DNA of 32,000 bases from Candidatus Heimdallarchaeota archaeon B3_Heim (GTDB taxonomy: Archaea > Asgardarchaeota > Heimdallarchaeia > Hodarchaeales > Hodarchaeaceae), in contig NJBF01000001.1 in NCBI GenBank assembly GCA_003144275.1, forward strand, positions 1 through 32,000. The letters are read 5' to 3'. Under the pieces are notes generated by a model. It was given only the letters and a program-made list of their open reading frames with translations, made no database searches and was not told the DNA's origin. The translations under genes and the position numbers were made by a program. This document shows positions 2,326 through 12,452 of this stretch, piece by piece (position 1 is the first letter of the stretch; every line of letters starts with the position of its first letter).

Positions 2326-2874
2326 ATGCCAACTAAATTATTTGGTCGAGAAATCGAAAATCAAATAGCCTTTGTCGGCCTTGCTAATGCAGGAAAAACA
2401 ACATTAGTAAAACGACTGAAAGGGCATGATGATTTAGCAACAGTCCCTACTATGGGTATGAATATAGAAACACTAAAGATTGGTGATCTTGAAGTTATGG
2501 CTGTGGATTTAGGTGGACAGCCTACATATCCTACTAGTCTTTGGGAACCATTTGTTTCAGAAGCATCGGGAGTGGTTTTTGTTTTCGATTCAGCTGACAG
2601 AGACAAAGTTGAAACTGCAGCTAAGTGGCTTAAGAATGTTATTCAATGGGCGCCAGAGGATTCTGCATTTTTATTTTTAGCAAATAAACAAGATCTTGAT
2701 GTTGCAATGTCTTTAGATAATATAATTAAAACCCTTGAACTGGAAACTGAAATGGCACAACGCCCGCGAACATTTGGGGTTTATCCATGCTCTGCTCTCA
2801 CTGGAGAAGGCGTTGATGAACCTTGGCGATGGATGAGCGAGAGATTTCAAAGTAAACTAACACAAAGAAAGTAA
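2326..2874 (+). CDS. Arf/Arl-family small GTPase
   Basis: G1 GLANAGKTT, switch I PTMGMN, G3 DLGGQ followed by LW, FVFDSAD, G4 NKQD, G5 CSA. Confidence 0.92.
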   Translation: MPTKLFGREIENQIAFVGLANAGKTTLVKRLKGHDDLATVPTMGMNIETLKIGDLEVMAVDLGGQPTYPTSLWEPFVSEASGVVFVFDSADRDKVETAAKWLKNVIQWAPEDSAFLFLANKQDLDVAMSLDNIIKTLELETEMAQRPRTFGVYPCSALTGEGVDEPWRWMSERFQSKLTQRK

Positions 2875-2887
2875 AGAGGTATCTTTA

Positions 2888-3451
2888 ATGAGTTTCCTTA
2901 CCAAACTACGCTCGAAGTTCGCAAGAGAACGATTAACGGTGAAAATTGCCTGGTTAGGGCTTGATCATGCAGGAAAGACAACAATCGTCAAAAGAATTAC
3001 CTCTGGTGAATTCGATGATAGTACATTTCGTACACTTGGTATGAATGTAGACGAGTTCAGCTCCGGTAATGTTAGATTTATATCTTGGGACATCGGTGGC
3101 CAAGAAGCCTTTCGTGAATCCCTCTGGGAGAGTTATATGGCAGGTTCAATGGGAATTGTTTATGTAATTGATTCAGATGACCGACAACGTTTTGATGAAG
3201 CTCAAGCTGAATTATGGAAGTATGTCTTAAATAACGATAAGGTAGAAAACATCCCCATTCTGGTACTTGCAAATAAACAAGACCTTGAAAATGCTGCTTC
3301 AGCTGGAGAAGTTGCTCGCTCCCTTAATCTTCACAAAGTAACCACACATTCATATGCAATCGTACCTACTTCAGCTAAAACAGGCTTCAATGTTGAAGAA
3401 GGGTTAGAATGGCTTCGACAGCGAGTTACTGAAAAAATAGAAACTCTCTGA
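2888..3451 (+). CDS. Arf/Arl-family small GTPase with N-terminal amphipathic helix
   Basis: N-terminus MSFLTKLRSKF, G1 GLDHAGKTT, TLGMN, G3 WDIGGQ..FR..LW..Y, YVIDSDD..RF, G4 NKQD, G5 TSAKTG. Confidence 0.95.
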   Translation: MSFLTKLRSKFARERLTVKIAWLGLDHAGKTTIVKRITSGEFDDSTFRTLGMNVDEFSSGNVRFISWDIGGQEAFRESLWESYMAGSMGIVYVIDSDDRQRFDEAQAELWKYVLNNDKVENIPILVLANKQDLENAASAGEVARSLNLHKVTTHSYAIVPTSAKTGFNVEEGLEWLRQRVTEKIETL

Positions 3452-3473
3452 GAAATGAGAGAATTCCATTATA

Positions 3474-4268
3474 TTATTTTTTCATAACCTTTTTATCCGA
3501 GACAAGATTTACTCTTTCAGTTAACGTTATGAATAGCCGATGTAACTTTGTTAGATCTAAGTTCTTATTTATTCTGGAATAAATACGAATAGAAGGGTCT
3601 TCTGACGAATCGATAGAAATACGAACAACAGATTCACGAATGGCGTATATCTGTTTAAGAAGCGGTTTATCTTTGAGGAAGAAGTCGCCCATCCGTTCAG
3701 ATGTTGCTTTCATTAAGAAGAATTGATCTAATAGTTCAGAATCAAGTACAACGTCTTTTAACTGAAAAAGTAAATCTTGATGTTTTTTAATTTGTCCTTC
3801 TTCATGATTGGGGATAATTTGTATTTTTGTTTGTAGTTTCCCTTTTTTCGCATTTCCTTCTAAAGCAATGTAGTCATTTGCTCCTGAAAACCATGAGATT
3901 ATCACAGACAACATTAAATGACGCTCTTCCAACGCAAACACGACACGAAAATCTTTGAATGGAATTTTAGATGATTTTTTATATTTAGGAAATAATAGGC
4001 CACCATTGGAGGTTATTTGATCAGTTACTAAATCATCAAATTCATTAGAAAATATTTCGAGAAGAGCATCCTTTGATACATTGATAATTTTATGATTCTT
4101 CCTCCTACCAGACCACAACAGGTAAAAAGTAAAAAATAGAACTAATCCTGGTCCTAAAAATATTACCATATAATCTAGAAGCCCGTATTGCTCAGATTGA
4201 AGAAAGAATTGTCCAATGAAAAGAAATTTTTCCATAAAAGAGTCGTATATTGCCATTTTGAATCTCAA
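3474..4268 (-). CDS. Single-pass membrane protein, CCDC47/DUF1682-like (PAT complex subunit-like)
   Basis: One hydrophobic segment (YMVIFLGPGLVLFFTFYLLWSG) is followed by GRRKNHKI...LLEIFSNEF and VVFALEERHLMLSVIISWFSGANDYIAL. By eye these parallel CCDC47 GKNKNSRL...RELLESNF and [28 protein letters not shown] (recalled, not searched). Confidence 0.55.
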   Translation of the reverse strand: MRFKMAIYDSFMEKFLFIGQFFLQSEQYGLLDYMVIFLGPGLVLFFTFYLLWSGRRKNHKIINVSKDALLEIFSNEFDDLVTDQITSNGGLLFPKYKKSSKIPFKDFRVVFALEERHLMLSVIISWFSGANDYIALEGNAKKGKLQTKIQIIPNHEEGQIKKHQDLLFQLKDVVLDSELLDQFFLMKATSERMGDFFLKDKPLLKQIYAIRESVVRISIDSSEDPSIRIYSRINKNLDLTKLHRLFITLTERVNLVSDKKVMKK

Positions 4269-10539: not shown

Positions 10540-10547
10540 ATTAGTTA

Positions 10548-11441
10548 TTATAACGATTTTTCGGCTTTTATTTTTGCGAGTTTTGATGAATATTTATCGG
10601 CTATTTCTTTATATCGTTTTTCAGAGATTTTACCTCCTAAAAACATCTCATCAGCCTGTTCGAGCATTAATTCGAATTTTTTAATTTTTTCTGAAACGTC
10701 ATCAAATTGATTTCGCTCTTCTGCGAGTTCTTGTTGAGTTTCAATAATTTGCTTTTCAATCTCATATGTAAGTAAGGTTTCGTACTCTTCAGGCACTTTA
10801 AATCCACCAATATCTAATCCTACTAGTTCTAGTCCCCATCGAGAGCTTTCAGGACCTAATTCAGATCTTGTTTGAATTTCTAAGCTTCTTCTTTCTTTTA
10901 ATAACTCAGGTACAGTGTAACGAGTCATAACATGTTTAACAGCTGCTATCACCGTCTGTTTCACCCAATTTTTAAGCTCATTTCCACTATAATACTGTTT
11001 ATGGGAGACTACGTTCATGATAAAATTCCTTGGATTCACAATCCGCATCCGAGAAATTCCCCAACATCCCACCATAACATTGTCTGAGGTGTAAATACCA
11101 GGCGTTCCCCATTTAATGATAAATTCACGTTTTGTAACCCATATAATTTCACTTCCAGGATGCTTCGCTGTTTTTTCCAATTGGTAAATTCCACTCCCAG
11201 CAACTCCAACTAGCACCCCTGACTGTAACAACACAGCATTTTCTGGTTCTTTTACAATAAAGCCGTCAATTTTTCTAAAGTTATCATTTTCTTCTGCTTT
11301 CACTCTATGAATTAACGATTCACCAAGTGAATCATCAAATTTTGAGCTTAGAATCGCTTTTCCCTTGAATTTCTTGGTACCTATGTGAATTGTATCCCCT
11401 ATTTTACGGAATAGTCCACCAAATTTGTCTGTTTCCGCCAT
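10548..11441 (-). CDS. SPFH/Band-7 domain protein with C-terminal coiled coil and SHOCT-like helix
   Basis: V.EPENAVLLQSG, WGLELVGLDIGGFKVPEE and ELGPESSRWG are SPFH patterns. A coiled coil precedes LEQADEMFLGGKISEKRYKEI. Confidence 0.8.
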   Translation of the reverse strand: MAETDKFGGLFRKIGDTIHIGTKKFKGKAILSSKFDDSLGESLIHRVKAEENDNFRKIDGFIVKEPENAVLLQSGVLVGVAGSGIYQLEKTAKHPGSEIIWVTKREFIIKWGTPGIYTSDNVMVGCWGISRMRIVNPRNFIMNVVSHKQYYSGNELKNWVKQTVIAAVKHVMTRYTVPELLKERRSLEIQTRSELGPESSRWGLELVGLDIGGFKVPEEYETLLTYEIEKQIIETQQELAEERNQFDDVSEKIKKFELMLEQADEMFLGGKISEKRYKEIADKYSSKLAKIKAEKSL

Positions 11442-11450
11442 CGCTTCTAC

Positions 11451-12452
11451 CTACCACTCTTCATCTCCATATAACCCTGGAAAGTAATACTGATCTCCTG
11501 AATCAAGTGATGACACTTTTCGAGCAACTTTTTGATTGACAAGACTATCTAAGACCCTCATTACTCGTTGTTGATCCCATTTAGTATGAATCATAACTTC
11601 CTCAAATGTTACATATCCTTTATCTATTGCTAGATTAAATATGTTCCGGGCATCTTTTCCAAGAGCTACTGGTGTAAACTCGACAATTTTTATGCCAGAT
11701 TGCTTGGAAACTCCTTCAATTAACGATTGTTTAGTTAGTTGTTTACAGGCCTTTTCTAAATCTTTCAATGAAAACTTGATATCTGGAACTTGATTTTTCA
11801 GAGAAGTATACAAGTTTGCCATTGAAATATAACCACCTGAACTTGCTCTAAGAGTTTTTCCTTGTTCAAGAATTAAATCAGCAAGATTGTCGACAAATTT
11901 CCCTTTCCCAAATATTTTTGGCTTTTTTGTTGCATCTAACGCAGTTATTGTTAGTGTACGCCCTTCTTTTCGGAGTAACTCTCTCTCTAATTGCTGAATG
12001 CGGGAATCATATTTCTTCTGTAAATTCTTAATTCCCTCGGTTGATACTGGAGCTCCGTTAGCCAACTTATTTTGAACTTGAACTACCTCTTCTAATCTCG
12101 TTATCTGTTCACGAAGATCTAACAACTCACTGCGGAGATCTAATTCTTTATTCCCAAATTCAAGATCATCAATTAATAGTTTAGACCGTTCTGTTATTTG
12201 GTCACAAAGAATAGTTGCCAGTAGCTGCGCAACACGGATTTCCCCACTTTCCTTTAAATTGGCCATTTTATTATCAGAGTAGAGTATTATATCAGGCACA
12301 GTTTCGCTTAAATACCTAATCTCTTCAAATTGTGTATAAGATTTAATTACTAGATCTGATATGTGTTTAGCTTTCATTGCAGCGGTATTACTTAATTGAT
12401 TTAGCGCATTACTTGCAGTTTGAAATTTTTCTCTCAAAATAAGGGTCACCAC
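11451..12452 (-). CDS. ESCRT-II Vps22/Vps36 (EAP30)-like protein with N-terminal coiled coil
   Basis: C-terminal tandem winged helices GGYISMANLY...SLKDLEKAC..L and GYVT...W...RV..VLD.LV ending in YYFPGL, typical of the EAP30/Vps36 family. The heptad-rich region covers roughly residues 90-165. Confidence 0.82.
   Translation of the reverse strand: MVTLILREKFQTASNALNQLSNTAAMKAKHISDLVIKSYTQFEEIRYLSETVPDIILYSDNKMANLKESGEIRVAQLLATILCDQITERSKLLIDDLEFGNKELDLRSELLDLREQITRLEEVVQVQNKLANGAPVSTEGIKNLQKKYDSRIQQLERELLRKEGRTLTITALDATKKPKIFGKGKFVDNLADLILEQGKTLRASSGGYISMANLYTSLKNQVPDIKFSLKDLEKACKQLTKQSLIEGVSKQSGIKIVEFTPVALGKDARNIFNLAIDKGYVTFEEVMIHTKWDQQRVMRVLDSLVNQKVARKVSSLDSGDQYYFPGLYGDEEW

What the first reader, a model, noticed from the sequence alone, without database searches (positions are those of the whole stretch)
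2326..12452. Candidate ancestral UFMylation-like, translocon/membrane-linked Ubl conjugation system in one Asgard locus
Seen in sequence: within ~10 kb lie a GG-terminated Ubl, an E1, an E2, a second E2/UEV-like protein, a JAMM isopeptidase and a WH+RING-like protein, i.e. writer, modifier and eraser. They are flanked by a single-pass membrane protein, two Arf-like GTPases, an SPFH protein and a Vps22/36-like protein. Established: in eukaryotes UFM1 is conjugated by UBA5/UFC1/UFL1 to uL24 (RPL26) on ER-bound 60S subunits at the Sec61 translocon, and CCDC47 is a ribosome-contacting PAT-complex subunit of the multipass translocon. Inference: three genes independently resembling UFM1, UFL1 and CCDC47 in one locus suggest a proto-UFMylation or ribosome-translocon quality-control module. 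It would use ubiquitin/NEDD8-type E1, E2 and JAMM enzymes instead of UBA5, UFC1 and UFSP, making it a mosaic intermediate. It differs from the described Asgard Ub-ESCRT cluster (no Vps25, Vps28, ESCRT-III or Vps4 here).
Basis: partly seen in the sequence, partly recalled or inferred. Interest (0 to 1): 0.92.

Follow-up and report, generated by a model that had tools for sequence, protein, structure and literature searches.

The report
Hodarchaeal ubiquitin-type system with UFL1-like ligase
An Asgard (Hodarchaeales) archaeon carries a complete ubiquitin-type tagging gene set whose ligase is built on the scaffold of the eukaryotic UFM1 ligase UFL1 but ends in a RING finger; a distant relative of the ER translocon factor CCDC47 lies beside it, but the tag is not UFM1-like and a link to ribosome or translocon is not shown.

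Summary
Two of its three recalled resemblances held up. The 586-aa protein is a specific UFL1 homologue: family profile against PDB E 3e-6, Foldseek E 5e-11, and all top 30 Swiss-Prot models are UFL1. It also has a CNOT4-type C4C4 RING. The membrane protein has the CCDC47 fold (Foldseek E 1e-6 to 8e-8), and 18 of 27 relatives give sub-threshold Pfam CCDC47 hits. The third resemblance failed. The GG-ended modifier groups with ubiquitin/SUMO, with no UFM1 signal. The E1 is UBA1/2/3-type, not UBA5, and the E2 is UbcH5/UBE2K-like, not UFC1.

The genome also has a canonical ubiquitin-ESCRT cluster and a third Ubl set elsewhere, so this is a separate paralogous pathway. The full 12-gene arrangement is kept only in one Hodarchaeales family, where the whole region is collinear. 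In the sister family the blocks are dispersed, but EAP30-SPFH-UFL1-like forms an operon. The CCDC47 fold also occurs in bacteria (DUF3137, TtfA).

Verdict: a new variant of the known Asgard ubiquitin systems. It suggests what UFL1 did before UFM1. Proto-UFMylation at the translocon remains unshown. This scan had already reported the same locus type in other Hodarchaeales genomes.

The parts
2326..2874 (+). Arf-family small GTPase 1
   Evidence: Pfam Arf E 1.8e-37. It keeps this position in all syntenic loci.
2888..3451 (+). Arf-family small GTPase 2, 13 nt after the first
   Evidence: Pfam Arf E 4.3e-48. It is 87% identical in a locus where the UFL1-like protein is only 36% identical.
3474..4268 (-). 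CCDC47-like single-pass membrane protein: TM helix followed by RRKNHK, a cytosolic beta-rich domain and a short C-terminal helix. Probable start is ATG 4256.
   Evidence: AF2 model pLDDT 76. Foldseek PDB top hits 7tm3_4, 9i78_4 and 6w6l_7, E 1e-6 to 5e-5, TM 0.52-0.58. The top 12 Swiss-Prot models are all CCDC47/UPF0674. Pfam CCDC47 matches 18 of 27 relatives, best 25.5 bits against a cut-off of 27.7. The window's own copy has no Pfam hit.
4350..4922 (-). JAMM/MPN+ isopeptidase (eraser)
   Evidence: Pfam JAB E 8e-10 and Prok-JAB 4e-6. The HSHPGYGLFLSQTD motif and the upstream Glu can be read in the sequence.
5018..5569 (-). Canonical UBC E2 (HPN, Cys100)
   Evidence: Pfam UQ_con E 9e-24. Family profile best PDB hits are UBE2K and UBE2D2/D3 at E 5e-21. 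HPN and C100 are invariant in 14 relatives.
5885..6673 (+). Zn-ribbon + RWD/UBC-fold-like protein, first gene of the Ubl-E1 operon
   Evidence: No Pfam hit. The Zn ribbon matches RNAP subunit P weakly. Atlas structure neighbours are Asgard RWD/UQ_con and FANCL, TM 0.41-0.44. Distant relatives carry an extra UBC_like/RWD domain. The ZnR-Ubl-E1 triad is kept in both families of the order.
6696..7025 (+). Ubiquitin/SUMO-type modifier ending GG-stop, with a 26-aa N-terminal extension
   Evidence: Pfam Rad60-SLD and ubiquitin match 20 of 20 relatives, Ufm1 0 of 20. The best PDB profile hits are ubiquitin. The C-terminal IVPDQIKGG is invariant.
7061..8299 (+). Canonical E1 (adenylation domain, PxCT catalytic Cys, CxxC zinc site)
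   Evidence: Pfam ThiF E 1e-49. PDB best hits are UBA2, UBA1 and UBA3 at 7e-32 to 4e-28, against UBA5 at 4e-17.
8296..8628 (-). Conserved 104-110-aa Zn-ribbon protein with a basic tail; function unknown
   Evidence: A gene is called at this position in relatives. It is 34% identical in the most divergent syntenic locus. Only weak Zn-ribbon Pfam hits.
8779..10539 (+). UFL1-like E3: alpha1-pWH-WH1-5 (about aa 1-354), Cys/His Zn modules (373-448), a PCI/DDRGK1-type WH (464-532) and a C4C4 RING (537-578). Probable start is ATG 8788.
10548..11441 (-). SPFH/Band 7 protein
   Evidence: Pfam Band_7 E 1e-16. It is adjacent to the UFL1-like gene in both families of the order.
11451..12452 (-). EAP30 (Vps22/36-like) paralogue with an N-terminal coiled coil
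   Evidence: Pfam EAP30 E 1.4e-10. It is one of three EAP30 genes in the genome; the best-scoring one lies in the ESCRT cluster on C10.

Best explanation
This is one of three paralogous ubiquitin-type conjugation systems in a Hodarchaeales genome. Homology supports the following parts. A beta-grasp modifier ends in GG with nothing to trim. A canonical E1 has the PxCT catalytic cysteine. A UbcH5/UBE2K-like E2 has HPN and Cys100. A JAMM protease has an intact metal site. The E3 is a 583-586-aa protein whose first ~350 residues are homologous to eukaryotic UFL1 (alpha1, partial WH, five WH domains). UFL1's ribosome-gripping C-terminal bundle is replaced by zinc modules, a PCI/DDRGK1-type WH and a CNOT4-type C4C4 RING.

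The inferred mechanism is as follows. The E1 adenylates the modifier and forms a thioester with it. The modifier passes to the E2. The RING recruits E2~Ubl while the WH array docks the substrate assembly. The JAMM enzyme removes the tag. The Zn-ribbon/RWD-like protein encoded ahead of the Ubl and E1 is a non-catalytic UBC-fold cofactor.

The target is not shown. My preferred guess (about 0.35) is a membrane-proximal assembly built on the adjacent EAP30 paralogue and SPFH protein, because EAP30-SPFH-UFL1-like is an operon in the sister family. The CCDC47-like membrane protein, encoded downstream of the E2 and JAMM genes, may tether or present clients in this family only.
For: Gene content and motifs.

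UFL1 homology of the E3. The RING has eight invariant Cys with spacing C-x2-C-x11-C-x2-C-x4-C-x2-C-x11-C-x2-C and weak RING profile hits.

E1 type. E2 type. Ubl type.

Separate pathway: ubiquitin, E1, E2, Vps28, EAP30 and two Snf7 genes lie on C10, and a third JAB-E2-E1-Ubl set lies on C86.

Conservation: the UFL1-like, ZnR and CCDC47-like genes lie within about 8 kb on one contig in 16 of 22 genomes of the family. In 5 genomes they are split across contigs in fragmented assemblies, and in 1 they are split on one contig. Locus tags of NCBI MAGs place the two end genes exactly 7 genes apart.

Sister family: EAP30, SPFH and the UFL1-like gene are co-directional with gaps of 6 and 0 nt. ZnR-Ubl-E1 is kept as a block.

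E3-E2 co-fold: ipSAE 0.35 in the median of 3 runs, best control 0.00, verdict 'weak support'. That mark was reached by 58 of 80 solved complexes and 2 of 110 mismatched pairs, but scores of 0.60 or under came from only 7 of those 80 and from both mismatches. The runs agreed in at least 70% of contacts, and partner pLDDT was at least 76. RING-E2 is a textbook pair, so this pass may only reflect likeness to solved complexes.
Against: No biochemical or expression data exist, and no RNA run was listed. Synteny within the family is not independent evidence, because the whole stretch from ThrRS to the TPR gene is collinear. The E2, JAMM and CCDC47-like genes are not next to the Ubl-E1 block or the UFL1-like gene in the sister family, so which E2 and E3 serve this Ubl there is unknown. 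The RING assignment rests on spacing and weak profile hits; I could not fold the domain alone. The EAP30/SPFH target guess rests on gene order only.
Confidence: 0.6

Rival explanations
1. Proto-UFMylation at the ribosome-SecYEG junction. The UFL1-like WH array docks on the 50S subunit near the tunnel exit. The Ubl is attached to uL24 or a neighbour on membrane-bound ribosomes. The CCDC47-like protein sits at the translocon, and the JAMM enzyme resets the system.
For: UFL1 homology covers alpha1-pWH-WH1-5, and in human UFL1 all of these WH domains touch the 60S (PMC10937380). The membrane protein has the CCDC47 fold, its TM topology and weak sequence signal, and CCDC47 contacts the ribosome at the translocon (PMC7505659). 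The CCDC47-like gene lies directly downstream of the E2 and JAMM genes on the same strand. uL24 of this genome is 144 aa with a Lys-rich then acidic C-terminal tail. In the sister family the CCDC47-like gene lies among membrane proteases, an AN1 zinc-finger membrane protein, GrpE and Hsp70, a protein quality-control setting.
Against: The Ubl, E1 and E2 are not UFM1/UBA5/UFC1-like, and no Ufm1 or UFC1 match was found in the genome. The UFL1 C-terminal bundle and PTC loop that bind the tRNA sites are replaced by zinc modules and a RING. No DDRGK1 or CDK5RAP3 partner was seen. eL13 and eL36, which human UFL1 WH1/2 contact, were not detected here; the eL13 control rang nowhere, so that absence is soft. 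The long CCDC47 coiled coil that reaches the tunnel exit is missing. The CCDC47-like gene is linked to Ubl genes in one family only, and its fold is common in bacteria.
Confidence: 0.15
2. A mosaic of unrelated blocks. The Ubl cassette is an ordinary Asgard ubiquitin paralogue with a general-purpose RING E3. The Arf pair, the CCDC47-like gene, SPFH and EAP30 are neighbours only because this lineage's genomes are collinear, and none of them works with the cascade.
For: Collinearity extends about 10 kb beyond the cluster on both sides, from ThrRS to Gins51, the A24 peptidase and the Roadblock/GTPase module. In the sister family the blocks are separated. More distant CCDC47-like genes have no Ubl neighbours.
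Against: Gene order is held even where the UFL1-like protein has diverged to 36% identity. CCDC47-like, JAMM and E2 are co-directional with 81-95 nt gaps. EAP30-SPFH-UFL1-like stay adjacent through an inversion and become an operon in the sister family, which argues for at least that link.
Confidence: 0.25

Closest known systems
Eukaryotic UFL1 (E3 UFM1-protein ligase 1; PDB 8ohd, 8qfc, 8c0d, 8b9x) with DDRGK1/UFBP1 and CDK5RAP3
   Different: This protein has a C4C4 RING and extra zinc modules where UFL1 has its PTC loop and C-terminal helical bundle. UFL1 is a RING-less scaffold that needs DDRGK1 to complete the partial WH and works with UFC1 and UFM1. None of these partners is detectable in this genome. 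Here the partners are ubiquitin-type.
Asgard DDRGK-UFL1-GAE-Vps28 fusion proteins (Liu et al. preprint 10.1101/2020.10.19.343400; Picchianti et al. PMC10183829)
   Same: They are archaeal UFL1 homologues and match the same WH region (profile positions 31-181, E 1e-8 to 1e-10).
   Different: The Loki-type proteins are about 800 aa. They carry a DDRGK domain (E 2e-13), score above the Pfam threshold for E3_UFM1_ligase (62 bits) and have a Vps28 C-terminus. They have no RING and do not sit beside Ubl genes. The Hodarchaeales form is 583-588 aa, ends in a RING, and lies next to an E1 in this family.
Archaeal ubiquitin-type operons and Asgard Ub-ESCRT clusters (Hatano et al. PMC9192718; Caldiarchaeum system, PMC6043591)
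   Same: Same kind of cascade: Ubl-GG, E1, UBC E2, RING E3 and a JAMM/Rpn11-like protease, with EAP30 nearby.
   Different: This is a paralogous set. The genome's best ubiquitin, Vps28, main EAP30 and ESCRT-III genes lie on another contig. The E3 is a UFL1-type WH array rather than a small RING protein. A ZnR/RWD-like gene and a CCDC47-like gene are added.
Eukaryotic CCDC47 (PAT complex / multipass translocon; PDB 7tm3, 6w6l, 9i78; Pfam PF07946)
   Same: Both have a single TM helix followed by a cytosolic beta-rich globular domain. The alignment is collinear over TM plus domain (query 23-254 to CCDC47 125-394), with TM-score 0.53-0.63. Relatives give sub-threshold Pfam hits.
   Different: It has no lumenal acidic domain and no long C-terminal coiled coil. 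No member reaches the Pfam cut-off. Bacterial DUF3137, TtfA and unnamed Chloroflexota families match the fold about as well (TM 0.50-0.64), so orthology to CCDC47 is unproven.
CNOT4 C4C4 RING with UbcH5B (PDB 1ur6)
   Same: The RING has eight Cys ligands, and both 1ur6 chains are matched: the NOT4 RING (1ur6_B, E 0.78) and UbcH5B/UBE2D2 (1ur6_A). From memory, not tested here: the x4 spacing between ligands 4 and 5 is that of CNOT4. The co-encoded E2 is closest to the UBE2D and UBE2K families.
   Different: Here the RING is the C-terminal module of a large WH scaffold. Binding is predicted only weakly.
FANCL (tandem UBC-fold/RWD domains)
   Same: It is an Atlas structural neighbour of the 262-aa Zn-ribbon protein, suggesting tandem UBC-like folds.
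   Different: The TM-score is only 0.39-0.41, there is no RING, and there is an N-terminal zinc ribbon. This is a lead only.

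Membership tests
UFL1 (E3 UFM1-protein ligase 1, PF09743) | N-terminal helix + partial WH + five tandem WH domains | tested here: met
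UFL1 (E3 UFM1-protein ligase 1, PF09743) | Sequence match to the family model | tested here: inconclusive
   Pfam gives 18.7 bits against a cut-off of 23.2 for the window's protein, and 20.0 bits for the sister-family copy. The family profile hits human UFL1 chains at E 3e-6 to 9e-6.
UFL1 (E3 UFM1-protein ligase 1, PF09743) | RING-less scaffold E3 with a C-terminal helical bundle and PTC loop that bind the 60S tRNA sites | tested here: not met
   After residue 354 the model has zinc modules, one WH and a RING, and no helical bundle. UFL1's architecture is taken from PMC10937380.
UFL1 (E3 UFM1-protein ligase 1, PF09743) | Works with UFM1, UFC1, UBA5 and DDRGK1 | tested here: not met
   No Ufm1 or UFC1 Pfam match in the 94%-complete genome. 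The only PF09743 matches in the genome are this protein (12.7 bits) and an equally weak one on contig C88 (12.6 bits, E 0.16), both below the cut-off. The neighbouring enzymes are ubiquitin-type. DDRGK itself was not searched for in this genome.
UFM1 (PF03671) | Sequence match to the Ufm1 family | tested here: not met
   0 of 20 family members match at E <= 1, while ubiquitin and Rad60-SLD match 20 of 20. The best 60 PDB profile hits are all ubiquitin-type. The N-terminal half alone gives no UFM1 hit at E <= 10.
UFM1 (PF03671) | UFM1-like 3D features as distinct from ubiquitin/SUMO | not tested
UFM1 (PF03671) | Activation by a UBA5-type E1 without a separate catalytic-Cys domain | tested here: not met
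   The E1 scores 7e-32 to 4e-28 against UBA2, UBA1 and UBA3, and 4e-17 against UBA5. A PxCT motif is present.
CCDC47 (PF07946) | Single TM helix followed by the cytosolic DUF1682-type globular domain | tested here: met
   Foldseek PDB hits 7tm3_4, 9i78_4 and 6w6l_7, E 1e-6 to 5e-5. The top 12 Swiss-Prot models are CCDC47/UPF0674, E 8e-8 to 1e-5, TM 0.53-0.61. Basic residues follow the TM helix.
CCDC47 (PF07946) | Sequence match above the family cut-off | tested here: inconclusive
   18 of 27 relatives match at E <= 1. The best is 25.5 bits (E 8.8e-6) against a cut-off of 27.7, collinear over profile positions 11-252 of 326. The window's own copy has no hit. The profile against PDB gave no CCDC47 hit.
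CCDC47 (PF07946) | Long C-terminal coiled coil reaching the ribosomal tunnel exit, and a lumenal acidic N-domain | tested here: not met
   The model ends in one 20-residue helix (239-258). Only about 25 residues precede the TM helix. CCDC47's features are taken from PMC7505659.
CCDC47 (PF07946) | Exclusive relationship to eukaryotic CCDC47 rather than to bacterial look-alikes | tested here: inconclusive
   In the Atlas fold search, a Chloroflexota cluster scores TM 0.64, CCDC47 0.63, DUF3137 0.54-0.58 and TtfA 0.50. At the sequence level, DUF3137 matches only 3 of 27 relatives (best E 0.02) against 18 of 27 for CCDC47.
Ubiquitin-type E1-E2-RING-JAMM cascade (Asgard/Caldiarchaeum kind) | Beta-grasp modifier with a free C-terminal GG | tested here: met
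   GG is followed directly by the stop codon. GG is invariant, and 15 of 20 relatives also end exactly at GG. Pfam ubiquitin/Rad60-SLD hits.
Ubiquitin-type E1-E2-RING-JAMM cascade (Asgard/Caldiarchaeum kind) | E1 with catalytic Cys; E2 with HPN and Cys; JAMM metal site | tested here: met
   Motifs were read in the sequence. HPN and C100 are invariant.
Ubiquitin-type E1-E2-RING-JAMM cascade (Asgard/Caldiarchaeum kind) | RING E3 with eight zinc ligands that binds the E2 | tested here: inconclusive
   Eight Cys are invariant in 26 relatives. RING profile hits range from E 0.014 to 0.3. The co-fold scored 0.35 against a best control of 0.00, verdict 'weak support'.
Ubiquitin-type E1-E2-RING-JAMM cascade (Asgard/Caldiarchaeum kind) | Thioester transfer and isopeptide formation | not testable with these tools
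   Needs biochemistry.

The most novel reading that the evidence does not exclude
The locus preserves the pre-UFM1 job of UFL1. In the archaeal ancestor, a UFL1-type WH scaffold carrying its own RING used a ubiquitin-type Ubl, E1 and E2 to mark large ribosomal subunits or nascent clients at the membrane, next to a CCDC47-type factor. Eukaryotes later lost the RING, added the ribosome-gripping C-terminal domain and DDRGK1, and swapped in UFM1, UFC1 and UBA5.
Probability: 0.12. Interest if true: 0.9.

Novelty: new variant of a known kind. Interest (0 to 1): 0.66.

Why it matters
Picchianti et al. (PMC10183829) inferred that UFL1 and DDRGK1 arose in Asgard archaea before UFM1 and must have had a UFM1-independent function, but did not say what it was. 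This locus offers a concrete, testable candidate. In Hodarchaeales, a lineage often placed closest to eukaryotes, the UFL1 scaffold is fused to a RING. It sits beside a dedicated ubiquitin-type modifier, E1, E2 and deubiquitinase that are separate from the genome's main ubiquitin-ESCRT cluster.

The locus also contains what appears to be an unreported archaeal relative of CCDC47. My full-text searches found no paper linking CCDC47 to archaea.

All parts are small soluble proteins or domains, so the pathway can be reconstituted. Cultured Hodarchaeales have now been reported (bioRxiv 10.1101/2025.02.26.640444, seen only in the listing).

Tried and rejected
- UFM1 reading of the Ubl: rejected at the sequence level. 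The Pfam Ufm1 model found nothing above its cut-off in 400 Asgard genomes, so it could not retrieve the published 'Asgard Ufm1' family for comparison.
- I did not type UFM1 or ubiquitin sequences from memory.
- RNA evidence: no RNA holder was listed for 3400-10600.
- Promoter and terminator scan: fewer promoter-like sites than in shuffles, and the model is bacterial, so it is uninformative.
- Profile of the CCDC47-like family against PDB sequences: no CCDC47 hit. The relationship shows only through Pfam sub-threshold hits and structure.
- Profile of the 262-aa protein against PDB: only the zinc ribbon matched. Catalytic-E2 reading: the candidate Cys is invariant in 21 copies from 20 genomes of the family but replaced by a gap in the sister family, which keeps the same ZnR-Ubl-E1 operon. 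I therefore treat it as probably non-catalytic.
- Reading the E3 as a generic PCI or ESCRT-II WH protein: rejected. SelB, ESCRT-II and CSN score E 1e-3 to 5e-2, against 5e-11 for UFL1.
- Reading the locus as the canonical Ub-ESCRT cluster: rejected.
- I chose E3+E2 for the single co-fold job. E3 with the CCDC47-like domain and E3 with the ZnR protein were not tested.
- ARAGORN found no tRNA in the window.
- eL13 and UFC1 searches: the controls rang nowhere, so those absences are soft.
- No supplementary files were held for PMC12962969.

Full report
WHAT IS THERE. The window is the first 32 kb of contig C57 of a 3.95-Mb, 94%-complete MAG. Named homologues place it in Hodarchaeales, in the Heimdall group of Asgard archaea. 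Between 2326 and 12452 lie twelve genes:
- two Arf-family GTPases, 13 nt apart on the + strand;
- on the - strand, E2 (UQ_con, 9e-24), JAMM (JAB, 8e-10) and a 264-aa single-pass membrane protein, with gaps of 95 and 81 nt;
- divergently on the + strand, a 262-aa Zn-ribbon protein, a 109-aa Ubl ending GG-stop and a ThiF E1 (1e-49), with gaps of 22 and 35 nt;
- a 110-aa Zn-ribbon ORF on the - strand;
- a 586-aa protein on the + strand;
- converging on it, SPFH (1e-16) and EAP30 (1e-10).

THE 586-AA PROTEIN IS A UFL1 HOMOLOGUE WITH A RING. It has 63 homologues of nearly constant length (582-591 aa, 41-97% identity), all from Hodarchaeales-type MAGs. A 26-sequence alignment has eight invariant C-terminal cysteines, spaced C-x2-C-x11-C-x2-C-x4-C-x2-C-x11-C-x2-C, and a further invariant Cys/His cluster at 373-448. 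Against PDB sequences, the family profile's four best hits are human UFL1 chains (E 3e-6 to 9e-6). RING domains follow (MAT1, UHRF1, BRE1, TRIM32 and NOT4, E 0.014-0.8), aligned to residues 522-582.

Human UFL1 consists of alpha1 (which binds UFC1), pWH, WH1-5 and a C-terminal bundle that fills the tRNA sites (PMC10937380). The archaeal protein shares the first part and replaces the last with zinc modules, a WH and a RING.

THE MEMBRANE PROTEIN IS CCDC47-LIKE. It has 66 homologues. Pfam CCDC47 is the only recurrent family, matching 18 of 27 relatives. The best hit is 25.5 bits (E 8.8e-6) against a cut-off of 27.7, collinear over profile positions 11-252. The window's own copy gives no hit.

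The AF2 model (pLDDT 76) has a long TM helix, a beta-rich domain and one C-terminal helix. Foldseek PDB's three best hits are chains of ribosome-translocon cryo-EM entries (7tm3_4, 9i78_4 and 6w6l_7; E 1e-6 to 5e-5, TM 0.52-0.58). I take these to be CCDC47 because Swiss-Prot CCDC47 models give the same alignment. The top 12 Swiss-Prot models are CCDC47 or its yeast and plant relatives, at E 8e-8 to 1e-5.

There are caveats. The lumenal domain and the long coiled coil of CCDC47 are missing. An Atlas shape search finds bacterial families about as close: a Chloroflexota cluster at TM 0.64, DUF3137 at 0.54-0.58 and TtfA at 0.50. I therefore call it a member of the CCDC47/DUF3137/TtfA fold group that is closest in sequence to CCDC47. 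Orthology is unproven. I found no paper connecting CCDC47 with archaea.

THE MODIFIER AND ENZYMES ARE UBIQUITIN-TYPE, NOT UFM1-TYPE. The Ubl family is very conserved (68% mean column identity), with an invariant tail IVPDQIKGG. Rad60-SLD and ubiquitin match 20 of 20 members, and Ufm1 matches none even at E <= 1. The 60 best PDB profile hits are all ubiquitin-type. Atlas feature neighbours are Rad60-SLD and ubiquitin clusters. The N-terminal half alone finds no UFM1.

The E1 scores 7e-32 to 4e-28 against UBA2, UBA1 and UBA3, and 4e-17 against UBA5. The E2 profile is closest to UBE2K and UBE2D2/D3 at 5e-21. The genome has no Ufm1 or UFC1 match.

THE 262-AA PROTEIN. It has an N-terminal zinc ribbon. 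Atlas structure neighbours are an Asgard RWD/UQ_con cluster (TM 0.44) and FANCL at 0.39-0.41. Distant relatives carry an additional UBC_like/RWD domain. It is missing in the sister family, which keeps the same ZnR-Ubl-E1 operon. It is probably a non-catalytic UBC-fold cofactor.

A SEPARATE PATHWAY. The same genome has ubiquitin (PF00240, 2.7e-14), E1, E2, Vps28, the best EAP30 and two Snf7 genes on contig C10. A third JAB-E2-E1-Ubl set lies on C86. The window's system is therefore a paralogous, dedicated pathway and not the published Ub-ESCRT cluster (PMC9192718).

HOW FAR THE NEIGHBOURHOOD IS CONSERVED. In the window's family, the UFL1-like, ZnR and CCDC47-like genes lie within about 8 kb on one contig in 16 of 22 genomes. 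In five genomes they are split across contigs in fragmented assemblies. In one they are split on a single contig. The order holds even at 36% identity of the E3. However, the whole stretch from ThrRS to a TPR gene is collinear, so this is weak evidence of function.

In the sister family the pieces are arranged differently:
- EAP30, SPFH and the UFL1-like gene are co-directional with 6- and 0-nt gaps.
- ZnR-Ubl-E1 is a separate block, 8 kb away in one genome.
- The CCDC47-like gene lies among an M48 peptidase, a TM + AN1 zinc-finger protein, M50 and YhfC proteases, GrpE and Hsp70.
More distant CCDC47-like genes have no Ubl neighbours. Loki-type UFL1 homologues are DDRGK-UFL1-GAE-Vps28 fusions without a RING and without Ubl neighbours, as described by Liu et al. 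(10.1101/2020.10.19.343400).

MECHANISM. Homology shows a complete writer, modifier and eraser set with intact catalytic motifs. I infer that the RING recruits E2~Ubl and that the WH array selects the target. The single co-fold job (E3 + E2) gave ipSAE 0.35 against a best control of 0.00, verdict 'weak support'. That mark was reached by 58 of 80 solved complexes and 2 of 110 mismatches, but scores of 0.60 or under came from only 7 of those 80 and from both mismatches. The runs agreed in at least 70% of contacts and partner pLDDT was at least 76. RING-E2 is a textbook pair, so the pass may only reflect likeness to solved complexes.

The target is open. I favour the adjacent EAP30/SPFH assembly at about 0.35, because that adjacency survives rearrangement and becomes an operon. 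Makarova et al. (PMC10936438) also report a recurrent ESCRT-SPFH link.

The ribosome-translocon reading gets about 0.15. In its favour are the UFL1 and CCDC47 homologies and a 144-aa uL24 with a Lys-rich tail. Against it:
- the ribosome-gripping C-terminal domain of UFL1 is missing;
- no DDRGK1 or CDK5RAP3 partner was seen;
- eL13 and eL36 were not detected;
- the CCDC47 coiled coil is missing;
- the CCDC47 linkage is specific to one family.

NOVELTY. Asgard ubiquitin systems and Asgard UFL1/DDRGK1 homologues are published (PMC9192718, PMC10183829, 10.1101/2020.10.19.343400). So are structure-based Asgard Ufm1 homologues (PMC12962969). I did not find in the literature:
- the RING-bearing UFL1 architecture;
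- its placement in a dedicated Ubl operon;
- an archaeal CCDC47-like protein.
This scan's earlier notes describe the same locus type in other Hodarchaeales genomes with the same conclusion. Those notes also report UFM1/UBA5/UFC1-type cassettes in other archaea, which I did not test. If they are real, they weaken the idea that this locus is the ancestor of UFMylation as a whole.

Noticed in passing
G000 contig C10, about 19.5-36 kb (locus L094): The canonical ubiquitin-ESCRT cluster of the same genome: E2, an Arf-like GTPase, an 80-aa ubiquitin, E1, Vps28, EAP30, two Snf7 genes and a likely Vps4.
   Followed up: partly
G000 contig C86, about 26.5-30 kb (locus L095): A third Ubl set: JAB, E2 and E1 (38% identical to the window's E1), plus two ubiquitin-family ORFs.
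   Followed up: partly
L078 (G079:C166) 1-9112: In the sister family the CCDC47-like gene sits among an M48 peptidase, a TM protein with an AN1 zinc finger, an HBS1_N-like protein, M50 and YhfC intramembrane proteases, GrpE and Hsp70. This is a protein quality-control neighbourhood.
   Followed up: partly
L071 5645-6235 and L074 10527-11087: In two distant Asgard lineages the CCDC47-like gene is followed by a 186-196-aa protein with a C-terminal zinc ribbon. This may be a conserved partner.
   Followed up: no
13 genomes of the window's family, e.g. G067:C21:5503-6216 and G066:C1:3481526-3482242: A second, divergent CCDC47-like paralogue (about 275-296 aa, E 1e-33 to 1e-18 against the family profile). 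It was not found in the window's own genome.
   Followed up: no
Atlas fold search of model m9761d95ab556 (row 8): A Planctomycetota-rich bacterial cluster with this fold carries Pfam Prok-RING_1 in 91% of its members. This hints that the fold is linked to RING-type domains outside archaea too.
   Followed up: no
L119 (G078:C473) 8389-9990: In the sister family the gene after the E1 encodes a 533-aa protein with many HTH/WH-like repeats and an N-terminal zinc finger. It is not detectably related to the UFL1-like protein and may be an alternative scaffold.
   Followed up: no
window 2888-3451: The second Arf GTPase is unusually conserved: 87% identity in a locus where the E3 is 36% and the CCDC47-like protein 49% identical.
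   Followed up: no
L122 (G000:C88) 1429-1863, minus strand: uL24 of this genome is 144 aa, with a Lys-rich segment followed by an acidic C-terminal tail. It was not compared with eukaryotic RPL26.
   Followed up: no
ARAGORN reports no tRNA anywhere in the window, which neither confirms nor excludes it.
   Followed up: no
window 15833-20342: An A24 prepilin peptidase, Roadblock, a small GTPase, a second Roadblock and a TPR protein. The same set is present in the syntenic loci. In the sister family a GTPase-Roadblock pair directly follows the UFL1-like gene.
   Followed up: no
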